The notes beneath the pieces are model-generated. The model did not search any database and had not been told where the DNA came from. It was given only the letters and a program-made list of their open reading frames with translations. Source: Escherichia coli (GTDB taxonomy: Bacteria; Pseudomonadota; Gammaproteobacteria; Enterobacterales; Enterobacteriaceae). From it: 64,000 nucleotides of DNA. The stretch lies in assembly GCF_024700885.2 (NCBI RefSeq), contig NZ_CP117016.1; one strand, 5' to 3'. The translations under genes were made by a program, and so were the position numbers. Shown here one piece after another: positions 25,838-48,800 of this stretch; the first letter of the stretch is position 1, and each line of letters opens with the position of its first letter.

Positions 25838-25913
25838 GCCGATATAGCTCAGTTGGTAGAGCAGCGCATTCGTAATGCGAAGGTCGTAGGTTCGACTCCT
25901 ATTATCGGCACCA
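25838..25913 (+). tRNA. thrW: tRNA-Thr (anticodon CGU)
   Basis: GCCGATATAGCTCAGTTGGTAGAGCAGCGCATTCGTAATGCGAAGGTCGTAGGTTCGACTCCTATTATCGGCACCA; cloverleaf with anticodon loop tTCGTAAt. Confidence 0.95.
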
Positions 25914-29687: not shown

Positions 29688-30067
29688 ACCAGCCGCAGGT
29701 TTCCATTTTCCCGGCAGAAATGACCACCGCGCTTTACCGGCGGGCTATTGCTTCAGCATGGCGGCAGAAAATGCTGAACGAAACTGGCAGTGATCAGTAT
29801 GGTCCGCACAGCCTGACGGTGGAGCGTATTGAAATGGCCATTGCGCTGCATATCGAGTGCGTACTGATTAACGAGTACGGCGAAGTGCAGGGCGCCGCTG
29901 CCGCGCTGGCACTGCTGACTGACATGCTGGAGCCGTCACTGCTGACCGCGCCGCCGGTACTGACCGCGCGCGGCTGTGAAGTGATGGCGGAGATGTACCG
30001 CACGCTTCCGGCGGCCTTTGATGACTTCTGCAGTACCGGTGTGACGTTGTATGAGGGGGAAGTATGA
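29684..30067 (+). CDS. Hypothetical protein, 127 aa; stop overlaps the primase start
   Basis: Coupled series of ORFs upstream of the alpha-like primase. Confidence 0.45.
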   Translation: MNQPQVSIFPAEMTTALYRRAIASAWRQKMLNETGSDQYGPHSLTVERIEMAIALHIECVLINEYGEVQGAAAALALLTDMLEPSLLTAPPVLTARGCEVMAEMYRTLPAAFDDFCSTGVTLYEGEV

Positions 30068-32736
30068 CAATACAGACGGTTACGCAGATTTCAGCCGCCG
30101 CACGGGGGAAATGGCCCGTTATTCTGCAGATGCTGCGTATTGATGTACCTGAAAACGGCAGGCACGGTCCCTGCCCGAAATGTGGGGGCAAGGATCGTTT
30201 TCGCCTTGATGACCTTGACGGGCGCGGGACGTGGATCTGCAGCCAGTGTGGCAATGGTGACGGTCTGGATCTGGTTAAGCTCGTAACCGGTTACAGCGTC
30301 AGAAAGGCTGCGCAGGAGGTGGCGCAGGTGCTTAATGTGCCGAATATGCAGGAACTGCCTGTTAAGCCTGCCAGACAAAAAGCCCCTAAACGCGACATGG
30401 GTCTTACCGTGGCGGCGCTGATGAAAGAGAGCCACACGGGAGAAAGCGCCTATCTGACAGGAAAAGGGTTCGCCGGATACCCGGCCTCTCTGACCGGAAG
30501 CGTGCAGCATATCAGCGGTAAGGATTTCCCTGCCGGTTCCCTGCTGTTACCACTCACGACCAACACCGGAGCCGTGACCGGTGCACAGCTTATCGCCCCG
30601 ACGGGTGAAAAAAGCATACTGCCCGGCAGCACGATGAAAGGCGCGTTTGTGTCGCTCAGCCCGTTACCGTCTGAACCACCGGTACAGGTGGTGATTACCG
30701 AAGGTTACGCTACGGCGCTGACGGTAAGTCAGCTCACTGCCGGATGCGTAGTGGCTGCCATATCTGCGGGCAACCTGCCCAATGTGGCGCAGTCGCTGCG
30801 GGCACGCTGGCCTGAGGTAAAAATTATCATCGCCGGTGATAACGATTTTCAGGACGGAGATGAGAATCCCGGCAGAGCCTTTGCTGAACGGGCGGCAAAA
30901 GCTGTTGGCGGCTGGATGACGCTGCCACCAGGAGAGATTAAGGCTGACTGGAATGACTTTCATCGGGAGCACGGTATTACCCGTGCCCGTGAAGCCTTTC
31001 GCAACGGTCTGGTACTGTGCGGGGAAGGCCGCACGCAACTGCCGCACGGGTTCCGTCTTACCCAGGAATATCTCTGGTATGAAAAGCAGGTACAGCGCAA
31101 CGGTGAGACGGAGATCCAGAACGTCAAAATATGCAGCCCGCTGCGCGTGACGGCAATCACCTGCGATGCCGATGGCGGTAACTTCGGACGACTGCTGGAA
31201 TGGGAAGATACGTGGGGTGAGTGTCGCCGCTGGGCGATGCCGATGGAAATGCTGAGCGGCAGTGGTGAGGAACTGCGCCGGGTACTGCTGGTTAACGGGC
31301 TGTCTTATATCAGCACCACCGGTGAGGCACGCGCACGCCTGATGGAATATATCTCACTGTGTAAACCGGAACGCCGCGTGACCTGCGTCAGTCGTACTGG
31401 CTGGCATGGTCAGGTTTACGTCCTGCAGGATGAGGTCAGCGGTGAAGGTGCAGAGGGTGTCATTCTCCAGACCACTTCCGTGCAGGGGCGTGATTTCCGC
31501 GTGTCGGGCACAACAGAGGAATGGCGGGAGCATGTATCCCGCTACTGTACCGGCAACTCCCGCGTGGCATTTGCTGTCAGCCTGGCCTTTGCTGCACCAC
31601 TGTTACGGCTGGTTGGTATGGACGGCGGCGGCTACCACCTCAAAGGGGAATCGACAGACGGTAAGACCACCACCATGAAAGCGGCAACCTCCGTCTGCGG
31701 CGGGCCTGACTACTGGCAGACATGGCGGGCCACCGGCAACGCGCTGGAGGGATGCGCCAGCCGCCGCAACGATGCCGCCATGATGCTTGATGAGATCCGG
31801 GAAGTTGACGGACGCGAGGCAGGCAATATCGCCTACATGCTGGCAAACGGTCAGGGCAAGGGCCGTGCCGGTACGGACGGTGAGCTGCGTACCCGTAAGC
31901 AGTGGCGCCTGTTGTTCTTTTCAACTGGCGAGTTGTCTCTGACCGAACATGCGGCAAAGGCCGGTGAGCGTACTTTTGCCGGGATGGAAGTCAGGATGAT
32001 CCAGATCCCCAGCGATTCCGGGAAGTTTGGCGTTTTTGAGGAGCTGCACGGCTTCGACAGCGGCAAGGCTCTGGCAGAGCATCTTGAATGGGCCACGTCC
32101 TGCTACTACGGTTCGCCGTTCCGGGAGTGGCTGAAAGCACTGACCGCTGATCTTAACGGACTAACGGCACAGGCAAAATCGCTGATGAAGGAATATGCTG
32201 CCGCCCTGACTCCGAAAGATGCAGGCAATCAGGTGGGCCGGGCTGTGAACCGCTTTGCTCTGGTGGCGATGGCAGGTGAACTGGCAACCCGTCTGGGTAT
32301 CACCGGCTGGCCTGAGGGTGAAGCACTGCGGGCAACCCGCGTCTGCCTGAACGCATGGCTGAAAGATCGCGGGCACACCGCCAATCAGGAAGATATCGCC
32401 GCACTGGAGCAGGTTCGCAGTTTCTTTACCGCGAATCAGTACAGCCGCTTTGCAGACTGGTATGACGAGCGCAACCGCCCCGGCAATATGGTGGGCTGGC
32501 GCAGGGTGGAGAAAGGCAGTACCGCGCAGGGCACGGAAGCTGTCACTACGTTCTATGTCATGCCGTCCGGCTGGAAAGAAATCTGCAGGGGATTTGACCC
32601 GCGCAAGGTGGCGCGTCTGTGCGCAGATCGTGGATACCTGCTGCCCTCCACAGATGGCAAACTCCAGACAACCATTCGCCCGCCAGAGATGAATCCCCGC
32701 AGGCTCTATGTCTTCAACAGCGAGGTGCCTGGTTAA
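30064..32736 (+). CDS. P4 alpha-like bifunctional primase-helicase (zinc-binding primase, Toprim and D5/P-loop NTPase domains)
   Basis: CPKCGG...CSQCG zinc ribbon near the N-terminus; Toprim-like ITEGYATALT...IIAGDND; Walker A GESTDGKTT; 890 aa. Confidence 0.85.
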   Translation: MTIQTVTQISAAARGKWPVILQMLRIDVPENGRHGPCPKCGGKDRFRLDDLDGRGTWICSQCGNGDGLDLVKLVTGYSVRKAAQEVAQVLNVPNMQELPVKPARQKAPKRDMGLTVAALMKESHTGESAYLTGKGFAGYPASLTGSVQHISGKDFPAGSLLLPLTTNTGAVTGAQLIAPTGEKSILPGSTMKGAFVSLSPLPSEPPVQVVITEGYATALTVSQLTAGCVVAAISAGNLPNVAQSLRARWPEVKIIIAGDNDFQDGDENPGRAFAERAAKAVGGWMTLPPGEIKADWNDFHREHGITRAREAFRNGLVLCGEGRTQLPHGFRLTQEYLWYEKQVQRNGETEIQNVKICSPLRVTAITCDADGGNFGRLLEWEDTWGECRRWAMPMEMLSGSGEELRRVLLVNGLSYISTTGEARARLMEYISLCKPERRVTCVSRTGWHGQVYVLQDEVSGEGAEGVILQTTSVQGRDFRVSGTTEEWREHVSRYCTGNSRVAFAVSLAFAAPLLRLVGMDGGGYHLKGESTDGKTTTMKAATSVCGGPDYWQTWRATGNALEGCASRRNDAAMMLDEIREVDGREAGNIAYMLANGQGKGRAGTDGELRTRKQWRLLFFSTGELSLTEHAAKAGERTFAGMEVRMIQIPSDSGKFGVFEELHGFDSGKALAEHLEWATSCYYGSPFREWLKALTADLNGLTAQAKSLMKEYAAALTPKDAGNQVGRAVNRFALVAMAGELATRLGITGWPEGEALRATRVCLNAWLKDRGHTANQEDIAALEQVRSFFTANQYSRFADWYDERNRPGNMVGWRRVEKGSTAQGTEAVTTFYVMPSGWKEICRGFDPRKVARLCADRGYLLPSTDGKLQTTIRPPEMNPRRLYVFNSEVPG

Positions 32737-34706: not shown

Positions 34707-35299
34707 TTAGAAAAAAAATGCCCACGTAATCCCGGTCGAGTACTGGGATTTTTAACACCTTACCCCTGGCTGGCCTGAGAGCGCATGAGTGCATGTCTAT
34801 GGCGCATGAAAACGCATGAGTCTCATGCACCATTTTTGACGCGAAAGCCCTTGTGTGGTGGCTTCTGAGACGATTAATGAGGTGCATGAAAACCAGTCTG
34901 TTAAGTGAAGCGGGAAGGCGTGCGGGGCTGCGCACGTAGCAGGGTTAAATGGTCAATTCTGGCGCAGCTCACGACATTAAGTCAGCCTCAATAGATGTAC
35001 GTGTTGGTAGGGGTAATTCGCTACTTTTTTGTATCCTAAATTGTATGGTTTGATGCTGATCGTTTCTTCACCGCACCTGCAGAGATATCAATTCAATGTG
35101 GACAAAAATGAGTCTGGCTCTTTCCGTATCACTAGAATTGCCAGTATTGTTAGGGATGATGCCCATATCATACGGAGGGAGCCAGTGGGGGCGATTGCGC
35201 GTGGAAAGTGCTTTGGATTTATTCATCGGTTTTATGATTCTACATAAGGAGCAAAGGTACTTGTATCGTATGAAAAAAAATAGTATAGATATAATGCTC

Positions 35300-35525
35300 C
35301 TTACGCGTTATGGCATAGTTATATGCTAGTCGGGCGATTAGCCAGACTCGAACTTATTGAACGGTATTAGGGTTGCGCTTGGTGTGCCTCTGGATTGCAC
35401 TCCATGCTGTCGCGCAATCCAGAGGCACACCAAGCGCTTCCTTTAGGTAAGTGAGTAAAAACAGCACCTTCTTCGATTTATGATGAAGGTGCTGCAATCG
35501 TAACGTTTTTTGTATACACGGATAG
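35300..35525 (+). ncRNA. Candidate retron non-coding RNA (msr-msd): 63-nt perfect hairpin 35375-35437 plus a second hairpin 35462-35494; boundaries and a1/a2 unresolved
   Basis: A perfect long inverted repeat immediately upstream of an effector-RT operon is the hallmark of msd; TATAAT at 35291. Confidence 0.5.
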
Positions 35526-35529
35526 TATA

Positions 35530-36498
35530 GTGGCTGAGACATACGAAGATAAAGTTGCTAATCATGTTTCAGAGTGGGAAATGGAAAATTTCCGTGTATG
35601 TTATGATGATCAGGTTATTTTCTTATGTGGTGCGGAAGTACTTCCTCAAGGAAGTGTTCAGACTTCAATGAGAGGGCATTTTTATCACTATTGCCTGAAT
35701 AAAAATAAAGATATAGCTGATAAAATAATTCTTGCCGAAAACTTCAAAAAATATCTTCAAAATAATCATTATCCAGACTTAATAACTTTTGAGCATGATG
35801 TTGCAAGTATATCTAGTTTAGTTGTTATTTTCTTGGAAAGCAGTGGTTCAATTGCTGAGTTAGGTGTTTTCTGTAATATTAGTGATGTCAATAAAAAATT
35901 ATTGATATTTGTTCCATCAGATGAAGTTGAAGGTGACAAGAAAGAGTCTTTCATTTACTTAGGGCCTTTATTGTTTTTAAAAGAAAAGGTCAATGAAAAA
36001 GCATTTAAGATTTATCCAAAACCCACTAATGGTTCTGATTACTCCGAGCATTTAGAGATTATGGCTGATGACTTGGCTGAACTATTACCTAGAAGTGGTA
36101 AGTTTGAAAGCTTCGATCCTGACAATTTAGGGCATATAGCTTTTCTTATATGCAGAATTGTGCATTTAGTAATGCCTATTAAGCTAAAGGAAATATTAAA
36201 TTGTTTAAAAATAATAGGTATCAATAAATATACTCTGACTGAGGTTGAAAGAATTTTGTTTTTATTGGAAACATTGGGTTTTATAAATATTTATCCGTAT
36301 GGCGATTTAAAATACTATTATTCAATGCAAGCCAGGCAAAATCTTAAATTAGGGAAAAATAAAACCGGATTCACAATCGATGAGGCTGGTATTTTTACTG
36401 ATATTAGTGTTTTTATCAATGACAATAAATTATGTAGTGATAAAAAAAGACGGCTGGTTTTGAAAGGCATTAAGGAGAAGCATAATGGACATAATTAA
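35530..36498 (+). CDS. Retron effector: nucleoside 2-deoxyribosyltransferase-like N-domain plus winged-helix-like C-domain (GTG start at 35530 or ATG at 35578)
   Basis: VIFLCGAEV and ESSGSIAELGVF resemble the NDT P-loop-like and catalytic-Glu motifs; overlaps the RT start by 14 nt; AT-rich. Confidence 0.6.
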   Translation: MAETYEDKVANHVSEWEMENFRVCYDDQVIFLCGAEVLPQGSVQTSMRGHFYHYCLNKNKDIADKIILAENFKKYLQNNHYPDLITFEHDVASISSLVVIFLESSGSIAELGVFCNISDVNKKLLIFVPSDEVEGDKKESFIYLGPLLFLKEKVNEKAFKIYPKPTNGSDYSEHLEIMADDLAELLPRSGKFESFDPDNLGHIAFLICRIVHLVMPIKLKEILNCLKIIGINKYTLTEVERILFLLETLGFINIYPYGDLKYYYSMQARQNLKLGKNKTGFTIDEAGIFTDISVFINDNKLCSDKKRRLVLKGIKEKHNGHN

Positions 36499-37417
36499 AA
36501 AAATCGCAGATGAAACTCTAATGCCGGTATCAAAAGTATCTGCTTTTATATTTACAGCCCCATATAGATATAAAGTATATCCCATCCCCAAAAGGAATGG
36601 TGGGTTTAGGGAGATTGCTCAACCGTCAAGGGCATTAAAGTTTATGCAAAGGATTGTTATTGCTGAACTAGAGAAAGTACTTAAGGTTCATGAAAACGCA
36701 TATGCTTATGTCAAAGGACGTAGTATAAAAGATAATGTGGAAAAGCATCAAAGAAACTCTTATATTTTGAAAGTTGATTTCTGCGACTTTTTTAATAGCA
36801 TAAACCCTTACGACCTTGAGTTATGTTTAAAAAACAATGGGTTAGACTCATTGTTAAGCTCACAAGAATTATTGAATAAACTTTTTTTCTATAAGAAAAG
36901 TAAAAGAGGTGCTTTATCAATGAGCATCGGGGCACCTAGTTCTCCATTTTTGTCAAATGCGATTATGTATAAGTTTGATTCAGTCATTAGTGATATGTGT
37001 TCAAATAAAAATATTACTTATACAAGATATGCTGATGATCTTACATTTTCTACTAATGAAAAAGGTATTTTGTATGAATTCATACATGAAATAGATAAAG
37101 TTCTTGAGGAGATAGATAGTCCTAAATTAAAACTAAATGATAAGAAAACCATATTTGCATCTAAAAAATGCAATCGTCATATAACAGGAATTGTTATTAA
37201 TAACGAAGAAAAACTTTCAATTGGTAGAGATAAAAAACGTTACTTAAGTAGTTTAATTCATAAATTCTCGCTTAATGCACTTAATGAGGAAGGAGTTGAA
37301 CATTTAAAAGGGTATTTGGCGTATGTAAATAAAATTGAACCTTCATTCATTAGCAGAATGAAAAGGAAATATGGAGTCGAAGTTGTCAACTCCATAATCA
37401 CATTTAATCCATTATAA
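36485..37417 (+). CDS. Retron-type reverse transcriptase, 310 aa
   Basis: RT motifs LKVDFCDFFNSI, SIGAPSSPFLSNAIMY, YTRYADDLTF (YADD) and the retron-specific ITGIVIN (VTG) motif. Confidence 0.85.
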   Translation: MDIIKKIADETLMPVSKVSAFIFTAPYRYKVYPIPKRNGGFREIAQPSRALKFMQRIVIAELEKVLKVHENAYAYVKGRSIKDNVEKHQRNSYILKVDFCDFFNSINPYDLELCLKNNGLDSLLSSQELLNKLFFYKKSKRGALSMSIGAPSSPFLSNAIMYKFDSVISDMCSNKNITYTRYADDLTFSTNEKGILYEFIHEIDKVLEEIDSPKLKLNDKKTIFASKKCNRHITGIVINNEEKLSIGRDKKRYLSSLIHKFSLNALNEEGVEHLKGYLAYVNKIEPSFISRMKRKYGVEVVNSIITFNPL

Positions 37418-37894
37418 ATGTGAACTTATTATATTTATAATGGTTGTGCTTTTTTCTTGTACCTTAGGGGTGTAAAAGAATGTCATCATGAAGATAATTA
37501 AAAAATGAATGGCAATAAGAGTAATAGGTAACATTTTTTCAATATCACTTAAATGGCGATGCCTTTTTTGTGTAATAACTTCCTCTTCTCTTTTGAAAGG
37601 AGTTATACCTATCTTGACCTCCATCTCCTGAATTACTGTAAACTTAGCAGCATTAATTCTTTTATAGGAAGTAATTAGATTTATCCAATAGATATTAATT
37701 ACGACTCCAGCGAGAGAGATTAAGATTACCCAAATAGGCTGTATTGTTGGCTTTAAAGAAAAATATCCAACAAGCGGTAAAATAGAAGAGTTTAAGGCTA
37801 ATAAAAATGTATTTGACTTAAGTCTTCGATCACTTATTCTATCCGCCATCTCAACGCATGTTTTATATATTTCTATGACTTTATCATCCGTCAC
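37412..37894 (-). CDS. Small multi-TM membrane protein (160 aa), SLATT-like topology; convergent on the RT, last gene before attR
   Basis: N-terminal amphipathic segment followed by 2-3 hydrophobic helices (ILPLVGYFSL..., IWVILISLAGVVINIYWINLI, LPITLIAIHFLIIFMMTFFY); AT-rich. Confidence 0.5.
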   Translation of the reverse strand: MTDDKVIEIYKTCVEMADRISDRRLKSNTFLLALNSSILPLVGYFSLKPTIQPIWVILISLAGVVINIYWINLITSYKRINAAKFTVIQEMEVKIGITPFKREEEVITQKRHRHLSDIEKMLPITLIAIHFLIIFMMTFFYTPKVQEKSTTIINIISSHL

Positions 37895-48552: not shown

Positions 48553-48800
48553 TGCATTGAATAATAAAAATGGCGCAAATGCAGCGCCATTTTTATAGGT
48601 TAAAAACATTGCTTTTTACTTTCTGAAGCAGATAGCCAGTGAGTACATCGCGCTACTTCAGGATGCTGTAGATCCGGAGAACACTATAGAGGAAGATGCA
48701 TTGTTGCTGGCAGATGGAAGAAGTTTCGGGTTTTGTTATCCCTGAAAAACGAAGCCCCGCGGTTATAGCTGGCGGGGCAGTGCAATTAATTATTGCATAT

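What the first reader, a model, noticed from the sequence alone, without database searches (positions are those of the whole stretch)
35375..35494. The hairpins of the candidate msr-msd sit in an unexpected order
The 24-bp perfect stem (35375-35437, loop ACTCCATGCTGTCGC) precedes a shorter 10-bp-stem hairpin (35462-35494) and then the effector start. In canonical retrons the long msd hairpin lies 3' of the short msr stem-loops. I could not find convincing a1/a2 inverted repeats flanking the region, only a 9-nt direct repeat ATAGTATAG at about 35280 and about 35522. Either the ncRNA boundaries differ from what I assume (msr further upstream, in 35250-35375), or this family folds differently. 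Hairpin plus tail is about 73 nt, which would fit an Ec73-sized msDNA.
Basis: seen in the sequence. Interest (0 to 1): 0.55.

Follow-up and report, generated by a model that had tools for sequence, protein, structure and literature searches.

The report
Ordinary St85-family retron RNA, canonical order
The two hairpins belong to an ordinary St85/Sen2-type retron whose parts sit in the usual order (msr, then the long msd hairpin, then a terminator-like hairpin), so nothing is out of place.

Summary
The sequence features are real: a perfect 24-bp hairpin (35375-35437), a 13-bp hairpin with one mismatch (35462-35494) and the ATAGTATAG repeat. The reading "unexpected order" is not supported. Rfam's retron msr model matches 35296-35365, directly upstream of the long hairpin, so the order is the canonical msr then msd. 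The missing a1/a2 repeats exist. They are a1 35295-35304 and a2 35447-35457 (10 bp, one bulged U), with the branching G at 35305, and covariation across 41 related retron loci supports them. The short hairpin lies 3' of a2. It is therefore outside the reverse-transcribed unit and is neither msr nor msd. It sits where related retrons carry a hairpin, which in most of them is followed by a U-tract (an intrinsic terminator). Rfam family STnc400, the Salmonella Sen2/St85 msd region, has the same layout of long hairpin, a2, second hairpin and U-rich tail. In this window the U-tract is missing, so the hairpin is probably a weak terminator or a 3'-end stabiliser. This function is inferred. The locus is a type II-A retron (effector 35530-36498, RT 36485-37417) on a P4-like satellite prophage at tRNA-Thr, and 23 E. 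coli genomes carry it with the proteins already annotated. It is not Retron-Eco9. Interest is low.

The parts
35262..35289 (+). Probable sigma-70 promoter of the ncRNA: -35 TTGTAT 35262-35267, 16-nt spacer, -10 TATAGA 35284-35289. This is inferred.
   Evidence: The -10 box aligns with TATAAA in the Klebsiella and Serratia relatives. The simple consensus scan did not call it, because the -35 matches only 3 of 6. Family papers place the promoter about 5 bp upstream of msr and the branch G at RNA position 12 (PMC3335539; PMC11701397).
35295..35304 (+). a1 inverted repeat, UGCUCCUUAC. The conserved core is 35297-35304.
   Evidence: Best RNAduplex partner in the 230 nt downstream is 35447-35457, at -10.2 kcal/mol. 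It is the closing stem in the fold of 35294-35460. Covariation over 41 loci supports it.
35305..35305 (+). Predicted branching (priming) G. It is unpaired and lies immediately 3' of a1.
   Evidence: It aligns with the G of the conserved UUA(C)G-CG motif in the Rfam msr model and in 41 related loci. The branch itself was not tested.
35296..35365 (+). msr: match to Rfam RF00170. It contains stem-loop 1 (35311-35328) and the conserved stem-loop 2 (35329-35347, GUCGGGC...GCCAGAC).
   Evidence: 53.4 bits against a gathering score of 52. Stem-loop 2 is in the RNAalifold consensus of 41 loci, with its outer pair covarying as AU 19, UA 12, GC 3.
35366..35446 (+). msd, the template for msDNA. It holds the 24-bp hairpin 35375-35437, extended by 35369-35372 pairing with 35440-35443. 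Reverse transcription is predicted to start opposite G35446 and to end near 35365-35372, giving an msDNA of about 77-82 nt.
   Evidence: As DNA, the reverse complement folds at -35.7 kcal/mol, z = -10.9. A sub-threshold STnc400 match covers 35368-35486. The ends are inferred from the family rule, not measured.
35447..35457 (+). a2 inverted repeat, GUAAG-U-GAGUA, with U35452 bulged.
   Evidence: It is conserved as (G)GUAA... directly after the msd hairpin in 41 loci.
35462..35494 (+). Post-a2 hairpin: 13-bp stem with one U-U mismatch and a 7-nt loop. It is the positional homologue of the terminator hairpin of related retrons. Here A5 lies on its 5' side and there is no U-tract on its 3' side.
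   Evidence: The STnc400 consensus structure has a second hairpin in this place. The stem is conserved in L082 and L090, while the 3' flank varies.
35506..35511 (+). T6 run 12 nt after the hairpin. It is too far away to act as its U-tract and it is not conserved.
   Evidence: It reads TTCTTG in E. coli SY038 (L090) and TTTTT after a different spacer in L082. The terminator scan found nothing here.
35530..36498 (+). Retron effector of the STM3845/RcaT family (NDT-like), GTG start.
   Evidence: NCBIfam NF038232, 224.5 bits against a cut-off of 100. PADLOC NDT_II-A, 264.7 bits.
36485..37417 (+). Retron reverse transcriptase of the St85 family. It overlaps the effector gene by 14 nt.
   Evidence: NF038233, 347.4 bits against a cut-off of 235. 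PADLOC RT_II-A, 408 bits. Pfam RVT_1.

Best explanation
The region 35294-35494 is the non-coding RNA gene of an St85/Sen2-family (type II-A) retron, with its parts in the canonical order. A promoter near 35262-35289 starts the RNA at about 35294-35296. a1 (35295-35304) pairs with a2 (35447-35457), which places the unpaired G35305 at the end of that duplex. The two msr stem-loops (35311-35328 and 35329-35347) are the handle for the RT. The RT primes from the 2'-OH of G35305 and copies the msd template leftwards from G35446, through the 24-bp hairpin, to about 35365-35372. This gives an msDNA of roughly 80 nt whose body is the long hairpin. The short hairpin 35462-35494 lies 3' of a2, so it is never reverse transcribed and is neither msr nor msd. 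It is the counterpart of the intrinsic terminator that follows a2 in related retrons. It most likely ends or stabilises the roughly 200-nt primary ncRNA and limits read-through into the toxic effector and RT genes. It has lost its U-tract here, so it is probably leaky. Shown here: the msr position, the a1/a2 pairing with covariation, the msd hairpin, and the positional conservation of the post-a2 hairpin. Inferred: the transcription start, the branch at G35305, the msDNA ends, and termination or attenuation by the hairpin.
For: The msr model RF00170 matches 35296-35365 above its gathering score and matches the same relative position in 12 of 20 related loci. Folding 35294-35460 alone gives the textbook retron fold, at -83.4 kcal/mol, z = -8.1. 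The best duplex partner of a1 is 35447-35457. For a1/a2 across 41 loci, 80.5% of cells pair against 68.4 +/- 1.4% in shuffles (0 of 500), 9 of 10 pairs show double changes, and slid controls give 31-50%. A significantly stable hairpin starts 6-17 nt after the start of a2 in 24 of 42 loci, with unrelated sequences. In 15 of those 24 it has a strict U-tract. The Rfam STnc400 consensus reads long hairpin, CUAGUAAAGAGU (a2), second hairpin, U-rich tail. STnc400 maps to the STM3844/STM3845 intergenic region, and a roughly 190-nt precursor was seen on Northern blots (PMC2515195). The effector and RT pass the curated St85-family cut-offs.
Against: The msr score is only 1.4 bits above the gathering score, and the STnc400 score (53) is below its threshold of 80. 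The window's hairpin has no U-tract and neither consensus scan called a promoter or a terminator, so termination here is unproven. The ViennaRNA minimum-free-energy fold of the longer stretch 35280-35530 pairs 35305-35312 with about 35499-35506 instead, which would enclose the short hairpin. No transcript or msDNA data exist for this locus.
Confidence: 0.88

Rival explanations
1. The short hairpin is inside the retron RNA. On this view the true closing helix is GCGUUAUG (35305-35312) paired with CGUAACGU (about 35499-35506), so both hairpins would be msd and the msDNA would carry two stem-loops, which would be an unusual fold for the family.
For: The minimum-free-energy and centroid folds of 35280-35530 contain this outer helix.
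Against: The 3' arm is not conserved in the closest relatives. It reads CGTAATAT in E. coli SY038 (L090) and ATTAATAT in L082, while both hairpins and the 35295-304/35447-57 helix are kept. This helix would pair the G35305 that the family alignment marks as the branch G. The a1/a2 helix at 35295-304/35447-57 has family-wide covariation. In relatives the post-a2 hairpin is followed directly by a U-tract and then the ORF, which leaves no room for an a2 after it.
Confidence: 0.04
2. The short hairpin works mainly on the other strand. It would be an intrinsic terminator for leftward (antisense) transcription, which it stops before it enters msd, msr and their promoter. For example, this could be read-through from the convergent 8xMP gene.
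For: On the minus strand the stem is followed at once by UUUUU (the A5 at 35457-35461), whereas the plus-strand side has no U-tract. The window and L082 have the strongest 5' A-tracts of the 24 hairpins. Several relatives have A-tract, stem and U-tract, that is, bidirectional terminators.
Against: The nearest minus-strand gene is 1.9 kb away, beyond the antisense of two genes. The scan did not call a terminator on either strand. In the family the conserved polarity is plus-strand, with a U-tract in 15 of 24 loci. There are no expression data.
Confidence: 0.12
3. The short hairpin does not terminate transcription at all. It would be a processing or stability element, either an RNase III/E site that frees the ncRNA from the operon mRNA or a block to 3' exonucleases. 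Alternatively it could be a translational regulator of the effector.
For: There is no U-tract in the window, L082, L090 and some relatives (L016, L021, L032) although the stems are strong. In Salmonella the roughly 190-nt species is faint and a roughly 55-nt product accumulates, which shows processing (PMC2515195).
Against: The hairpin ends 35 nt before the GTG at 35530 and does not cover its ribosome-binding site. Most relatives have a canonical terminator in this place.
Confidence: 0.25

Closest known systems
Retron-Sen2 (St85) of Salmonella Typhimurium, type II-A1: msr (Rfam RF00170) plus STnc400 (RF02058), rcaT/STM3845 and rrtT/STM3846
   Same: The gene order msr-msd-effector-RT is the same. 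The effector and RT pass the curated St85-family models. The msr model matches above threshold. The RNA layout of long msd hairpin, a2 (GUAAAGAG-like), second hairpin and then effector is the same. By homology, a tripartite toxin/antitoxin mode is expected in which the RT-msDNA complex holds the effector in check (10.1101/2020.06.22.160168).
   Different: The msd stem sequence is different, and STnc400 scores only 53 bits against a threshold of 80. a1 ends in UUAC-G rather than UUA-G, and a2 has a bulged U. The post-a2 hairpin lacks the U-rich tail. The element sits on a P4-like satellite at tRNA-Thr.
Retron-Eco9 (E. coli NILS-16), the other characterised E. coli Sen2-like retron
   Same: It has the same family and operon structure.
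   Different: It is not the same retron. RcaT-Eco9 has Ser155, Ser181, Ser254 and Ser292 (PMC13645617). The window's effector has N, D, I and I at those positions.
Type I-A retrons (Ec78/Eco7, Ec83/Eco4), the closest RTs with solved structures
   Same: The RT is related: 9l7p_E matches at 263 bits and 9e8z_H at 243 bits. The ncRNA plan is the same, with the 5' and 3' ends forming the a1/a2 stem next to the priming G (PMC12475279). RT-adjacent msr loci of this clade carry the same post-a2 hairpin.
   Different: Those systems have msr-msd directly upstream of the RT and use PtuAB-type ATPase/HNH effectors. Here an STM3845-family effector lies between msd and RT.
Retron-Ec73 (Eco3) on retronphage phiR73
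   Same: It is also a retron with an accessory ORF between msd and RT, carried by a P4-like element (PMC6868368).
   Different: phiR73 integrates at the selenocysteine tRNA gene, whereas this satellite sits at tRNA-Thr(CGU). The curated models assign the proteins to the St85 family. The inferred template is about 80 nt, not 73 nt. No sequence comparison with Ec73 could be run.

Membership tests
Retron (msr-msd-RT retroelement) | Retron-type reverse transcriptase | tested here: met
   Pfam RVT_1, 87 bits. NCBIfam retron_St85_RT, 347.4 bits against a cut-off of 235. PADLOC RT_II-A, 408 bits.
Retron (msr-msd-RT retroelement) | msr RNA 5' of msd on the same strand as the RT | tested here: met
   RF00170 matches 35296-35365 (+) at 53.4 bits against a gathering score of 52, 10 nt upstream of the long hairpin.
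Retron (msr-msd-RT retroelement) | a1/a2 inverted repeats enclosing msr-msd, with an unpaired G just 3' of a1 | tested here: met
   35295-35304 pairs with 35447-35457 (10 bp, one bulge) and G35305 is unpaired. Covariation over 41 loci beats all 500 shuffles and all slid controls.
Retron (msr-msd-RT retroelement) | Stable msd stem-loop that folds as DNA | tested here: met
   24-bp perfect stem. The DNA fold is -35.7 kcal/mol, z = -10.9.
Retron (msr-msd-RT retroelement) | Production of msDNA linked 2'-5' to the branch G | not testable with these tools
   This needs msDNA isolation and sequencing.
St85/Sen2 family, type II-A | STM3845/RcaT-family (NDT-like) effector between msd and RT | tested here: met
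   NF038232, 224.5 bits against a cut-off of 100. PADLOC NDT_II-A, 264.7 bits. The order is 35530-36498 then 36485-37417.
St85/Sen2 family, type II-A | msd region matching Rfam STnc400 (RF02058) | tested here: inconclusive
   53 bits over 35368-35486 against a gathering score of 80. The architecture is the same but the stem sequence differs.
Retron-Eco9 | RcaT with Ser at positions 155, 181, 254 and 292 | tested here: not met
   The window's effector has N155, D181, I254 and I292.
Retron-Ec73 / phiR73 | P4-like element integrated at the selenocysteine tRNA gene | tested here: not met
   The only tRNA in the window is tRNA-Thr(CGU) at 25838-25913. By contrast, the Klebsiella and Serratia relatives L085 and L087 do lie next to tRNA-Sec.
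Retron-Ec73 / phiR73 | 73-nt msDNA | not testable with these tools
   The template inferred from a2 and the msr 3' end is about 77-82 nt. The real ends are unknown.
Intrinsic (Rho-independent) terminator, for hairpin 35462-35494 | Stable G+C-containing stem-loop | tested here: met
   -17.7 kcal/mol, 12 of 13 pairs.
Intrinsic (Rho-independent) terminator, for hairpin 35462-35494 | U-tract immediately 3' of the stem | tested here: not met
   The tail is CAAUCGUAAC, with at most 2 T in any 6-nt window. The feature is met in 15 of 24 homologous positions in relatives. The scan found no terminator.

The most novel reading that the evidence does not exclude
The most novel reading has two parts. First, the hairpin after a2 could be a conserved and so far undescribed regulatory part of retrons of the St85/Ec78 clade. 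It would be an attenuator that fixes the ratio of antitoxin RNA to toxin mRNA. In the E. coli/Salmonella P4-satellite lineage it has lost its U-tract and kept an upstream A-tract, which would mean it has been repurposed as a leaky or antisense-facing terminator. Second, the msd stem in this lineage appears to be under sequence-level purifying selection, not merely selection for pairing. That would imply that the effector, or a phage trigger, reads the msDNA sequence.
Probability: 0.2. Interest if true: 0.4.

Novelty: already known. Interest (0 to 1): 0.12.

Why it matters
It matters little for discovery. The locus is a standard type II-A retron, its proteins are already annotated in RefSeq, and existing Rfam models capture its RNA. 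The practical value is a correct map for anyone who wants to use or test this retron. That map covers a1, the branch G, msr, msd, a2 and a downstream hairpin that should be left out of engineered ncRNA cassettes. It also gives a warning for sequence-only reading: in this clade a second hairpin after the msd hairpin is the transcript's 3' element, not an msr stem-loop. The two side observations, a terminator-like hairpin conserved after a2 and an msd stem nearly identical across genera, could bear on toxin/antitoxin dosing and on msDNA recognition. They are modest leads.

Tried and rejected
1. Consensus promoter and terminator scans over 35000-35700 found none on either strand. The promoter is therefore inferred from alignment only.
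2. I tested whether this is Retron-Eco9 using the published phosphoserine positions. None matches.
3. A full-text search for the msd stem sequence found no paper, and the supplements of PMC8989520 held no ncRNA sequences.
4. The phage collection gave only distant RT relatives and no phiR73 record, so no direct Ec73 comparison was possible.
5. The E. coli E2348/69 msr-like match is a remnant next to a truncated RT and was not informative.
6. The 'second place' per genome in the E. coli BLAST is the palindromic hairpin matching itself.
7. The test of cognate against non-cognate a1/a2 duplex energy was weak, -9.4 against -7.5 kcal/mol, because a1 is conserved across many loci. I replaced it with the anchored covariation count.
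8. MAFFT with RNAalifold on the msr region recovered only stem-loop 2, because stem-loop 1 varies too much in length to align.
9. The P2/P4 cos sequence, recalled from memory, was not found with up to 3 mismatches.
10. A literature search for the 8xMP/RipA protein returned nothing relevant.

Full report
OBSERVATION. The long inverted repeat has arms at 35375-35398 and 35414-35437, 24 nt each, perfectly complementary and 15 nt apart. The second has arms at 35462-35474 and 35482-35494, 13 nt with one mismatch, around a 7-nt loop. ATAGTATAG occurs at 35280 and at 35522. The region folds far better than shuffled sequence, with z = -8.4.

CONTEXT. The window is an E. coli P4-like satellite prophage next to tRNA-Thr(CGU) at 25838-25913. 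It carries an alpha-type primase (30064-32736), a Psu homologue and a Delta/Ogr homologue. Downstream of the hairpins lie a 322-aa ORF (35530-36498) and a 310-aa ORF (36485-37417). These pass NCBI's curated cut-offs for 'retron St85 family effector' (224.5 bits against 100) and 'retron St85 family RT' (347.4 bits against 235). Their best PADLOC hits are NDT_II-A and RT_II-A. The identical 2.2-kb locus is present in 23 of 5426 complete E. coli genomes, where RefSeq already names both proteins but annotates no RNA.

WHERE THE msr IS. Rfam's retron msr model (RF00170) matches 35296-35365 on the plus strand at 53.4 bits, against a gathering score of 52. That is directly upstream of the long hairpin. 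The same model matches the equivalent position in 12 of 20 related loci, at 54-77 bits. The order is therefore msr then msd, which is the canonical one. The headline 'unexpected order' came from treating the downstream short hairpin as an msr stem-loop.

a1/a2. I collected 80 loci of the RT family from one genome per species, plus close relatives from E. coli, Klebsiella and Serratia. An nhmmer profile of the msr region located the msr in 43 of them. A conserved motif...CUUUA-G-CG or ...CUUAC-G-CG, lies 19-44 nt upstream of the invariant GUCGGGC...GCCAGAC stem-loop. A conserved (G)GUAA... motif lies directly after the msd hairpin.

In the window, the best duplex between the 10 nt before G35305 and the next 230 nt is UGCUCCUUAC (35295-35304) with GUAAG-U-GAGUA (35447-35457), at -10.2 kcal/mol. 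Folding 35294-35460 alone gives the textbook retron fold. It has the a1/a2 closing stem, an unpaired G35305, two msr stem-loops (35311-35328 and 35329-35347), and the msd hairpin extended by 35369-35372 pairing with 35440-35443. The energy is -83.4 kcal/mol, z = -8.1.

To avoid choosing the register by complementarity, I anchored a1 on its UUA motif and a2 on its UAA motif and counted pairs over 41 loci. 80.5% of cells pair, against 68.4 +/- 1.4% in shuffles (0 of 500). Nine of ten pairs show changes on both sides. The covariation score is 0.424 against 0.205 (0 of 500). Sliding the partner by 1-3 columns drops pairing to 31-50%. Examples of variants are CACUUAC/GUAAGUG, CACUUGC/GCAAGUG, UUCUUCAC/GUGAAGAA and UCAAUUAC/GUAAUUGA.

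THE SHORT HAIRPIN. It starts 5 nt after a2. Retron reverse transcription primes at the G beside the a1/a2 duplex and copies the RNA 5' of a2. This is established retron biochemistry and is summarised for this RT clade in PMC12475279. Anything 3' of a2 is therefore not template. The hairpin is neither msr nor msd.

Three lines of evidence show what it is.

(i) In 24 of 42 loci, the 55 nt after a2 contain a hairpin more stable than nearly all shuffles (at most 2 of 200 shuffles as stable). The sequences are unrelated. For example, Klebsiella and Serratia have AAGCUUACGCCAC...GUGGCGUAAGCUU in the same place. In 15 of the 24 the stem is followed at once by a U-tract, which makes it a canonical intrinsic terminator. 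The hairpin is found both where the effector gene follows and where the RT gene follows. Loci without it are mostly distant relatives in which the ORF starts 9-20 nt after the start of a2.

(ii) The consensus structure of Rfam family STnc400 (RF02058) reads msd hairpin, then CUAGUAAAGAGU (a2), then a second hairpin (aaauagcggggc-aAAA-gccccgcuauuu), then a U-rich tail. This is seen in full in locus L018 at 93 bits. The window matches this model over 35368-35486 at 53 bits, below its threshold of 80.

(iii) STnc400 was defined in Salmonella in the STM3844/STM3845 intergenic region, on the same strand. A faint transcript of about 190 nt and a product of about 55 nt were seen on Northern blots (PMC2515195). 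STM3845 and STM3846 are the Sen2 effector and RT. So the type member of the family makes a discrete transcript of about the length from promoter to post-a2 hairpin.

The arrangement 'long hairpin, short hairpin, effector start' is thus the normal layout of this family.

WHAT DIFFERS IN THE WINDOW. The hairpin has no U-tract. Its tail is CAAUCGUAAC, and the T6 run lies 12 nt away. In E. coli SY038 that run reads TTCTTG, and in the 89%-identical relative L082 the spacer is different, while the stem is kept. Instead there is an A5 run on the 5' side, so on the minus strand the element looks like a proper terminator. The simple scan called nothing on either strand, partly because of the mismatch in the stem.

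My best reading is a degenerate, leaky terminator or 3'-end stabiliser that lets some transcription continue into the effector and RT genes. Two lower-ranked alternatives are an antisense-facing terminator and a pure processing site. None of these can be settled without transcript mapping.

THE RIVAL FOLD. The minimum-free-energy fold of the longer stretch 35280-35530 pairs 35305-35312 with about 35499-35506 and so encloses the short hairpin. I reject it for two reasons. Its 3' arm changes without compensation in SY038 and L082. It also pairs the G that the family alignment marks as the branch point.

msDNA SIZE. With a2 starting at 35447, the first templated base is G35446. Family papers put the branch G at RNA position 12 and give an RNA of about 79 nt for the Sen2-like Vmi1 retron (PMC11701397). 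That would end the msr RNA near 35372, with the DNA 3' end paired to it. The template would then be about 35365-35446, or 77-82 nt. Both figures are inference.

IDENTITY. The retron is not Eco9. The four serines reported in RcaT-Eco9 are N, D, I and I here. It is not on a selC-integrated phiR73-type element. No solved structure has the same RT. The closest are the Ec78 and Ec83 RTs at about 243-263 bits, where a self-match would score about 640. I found no paper containing its msd sequence.

VERDICT. This is an ordinary, already annotated St85-family retron with a canonical ncRNA, followed by the family's usual terminator-type hairpin, which is degenerate here. Interest is low. Two side observations are recorded for anyone studying retron regulation: the conserved post-a2 hairpin and the unusually conserved msd stem.

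Noticed in passing
window 35366-35446, compared with L085 1372-1458 and L087 1371-1457: The msd is the best-conserved part of the whole retron between E. coli and its Klebsiella and Serratia relatives. It is 85-89% identical, and by my count from the alignment the two stem arms are 47/48 identical. The one difference creates a mismatch in the Klebsiella and Serratia stems. The loop differs by substitutions and a 7-nt indel. The effector and RT genes are only about 65% identical at DNA level (55-59% at protein level), and the flanking non-coding DNA is 45-51% identical. msd is usually regarded as the most variable retron part, so the stem sequence itself seems to be under selection in this lineage.
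   Followed up: partly
window 37412-37894 (-), and L082-L088: A gene for an 8xMP/RipA-family octameric membrane protein (Pfam PF24838) lies convergent with the RT gene and overlaps its 3' end by a few bases. The same arrangement is found in every relative of the P4-satellite subclade (E. coli, Klebsiella, Serratia and two unassigned contigs; 40-83% identity). It is found in none of the 80 more distant loci. It may be a fourth component or a separate hitch-hiking defence gene.
   Followed up: partly
L021, L024, L033, L023, L014, L008, L007 and others (msd loops; sequences): Many msd hairpin loops in the wider family share a motif, UCGUUCCUC, or close variants such as UCGUGCCUC and UCGUCCCUC, although their stems are unrelated. 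The window's loop (ACUCCAUGCUGUCGC) lacks it.
   Followed up: no
window 35262-35288 and 35510-35530: Both copies of ATAGTATAG are preceded by TTGTAT, 12 nt and 6 nt upstream respectively. The first pair coincides with the likely -35 and -10 boxes of the ncRNA promoter. The second copy lies just before the effector start and reads ATAGTATTG in L082, so the repeat is probably chance.
   Followed up: partly
window 34707-35260: About 550 nt between the Delta/Ogr gene and the retron promoter carry no annotated gene in RefSeq, although they hold short ORFs (35029-35247 and 35096-35329) and a G+C-rich stretch near 34900-34950. I looked for the P2/P4 cos sequence and found no match with up to 3 mismatches.
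   Followed up: partly
L085 5272-5362 and L087 5288-5378: The Klebsiella and Serratia satellites that carry the related retron sit next to tRNA-Sec, the integration site reported for phiR73/Ec73. The E. coli element in the window sits at tRNA-Thr instead.
   Followed up: no
window 48558-48758 (+): Rfam IS009 (RF02111) matches at 190.7 bits, well outside the satellite.
   Followed up: no
L089 (E. coli E2348/69, NC_011601.1 1701554-1702061): A 52-nt stretch 92.5% identical to the window's msr lies upstream of a truncated 133-aa 'reverse transcriptase domain-containing protein'. This looks like a decayed retron next to an integrase fragment and hipBA.
   Followed up: no
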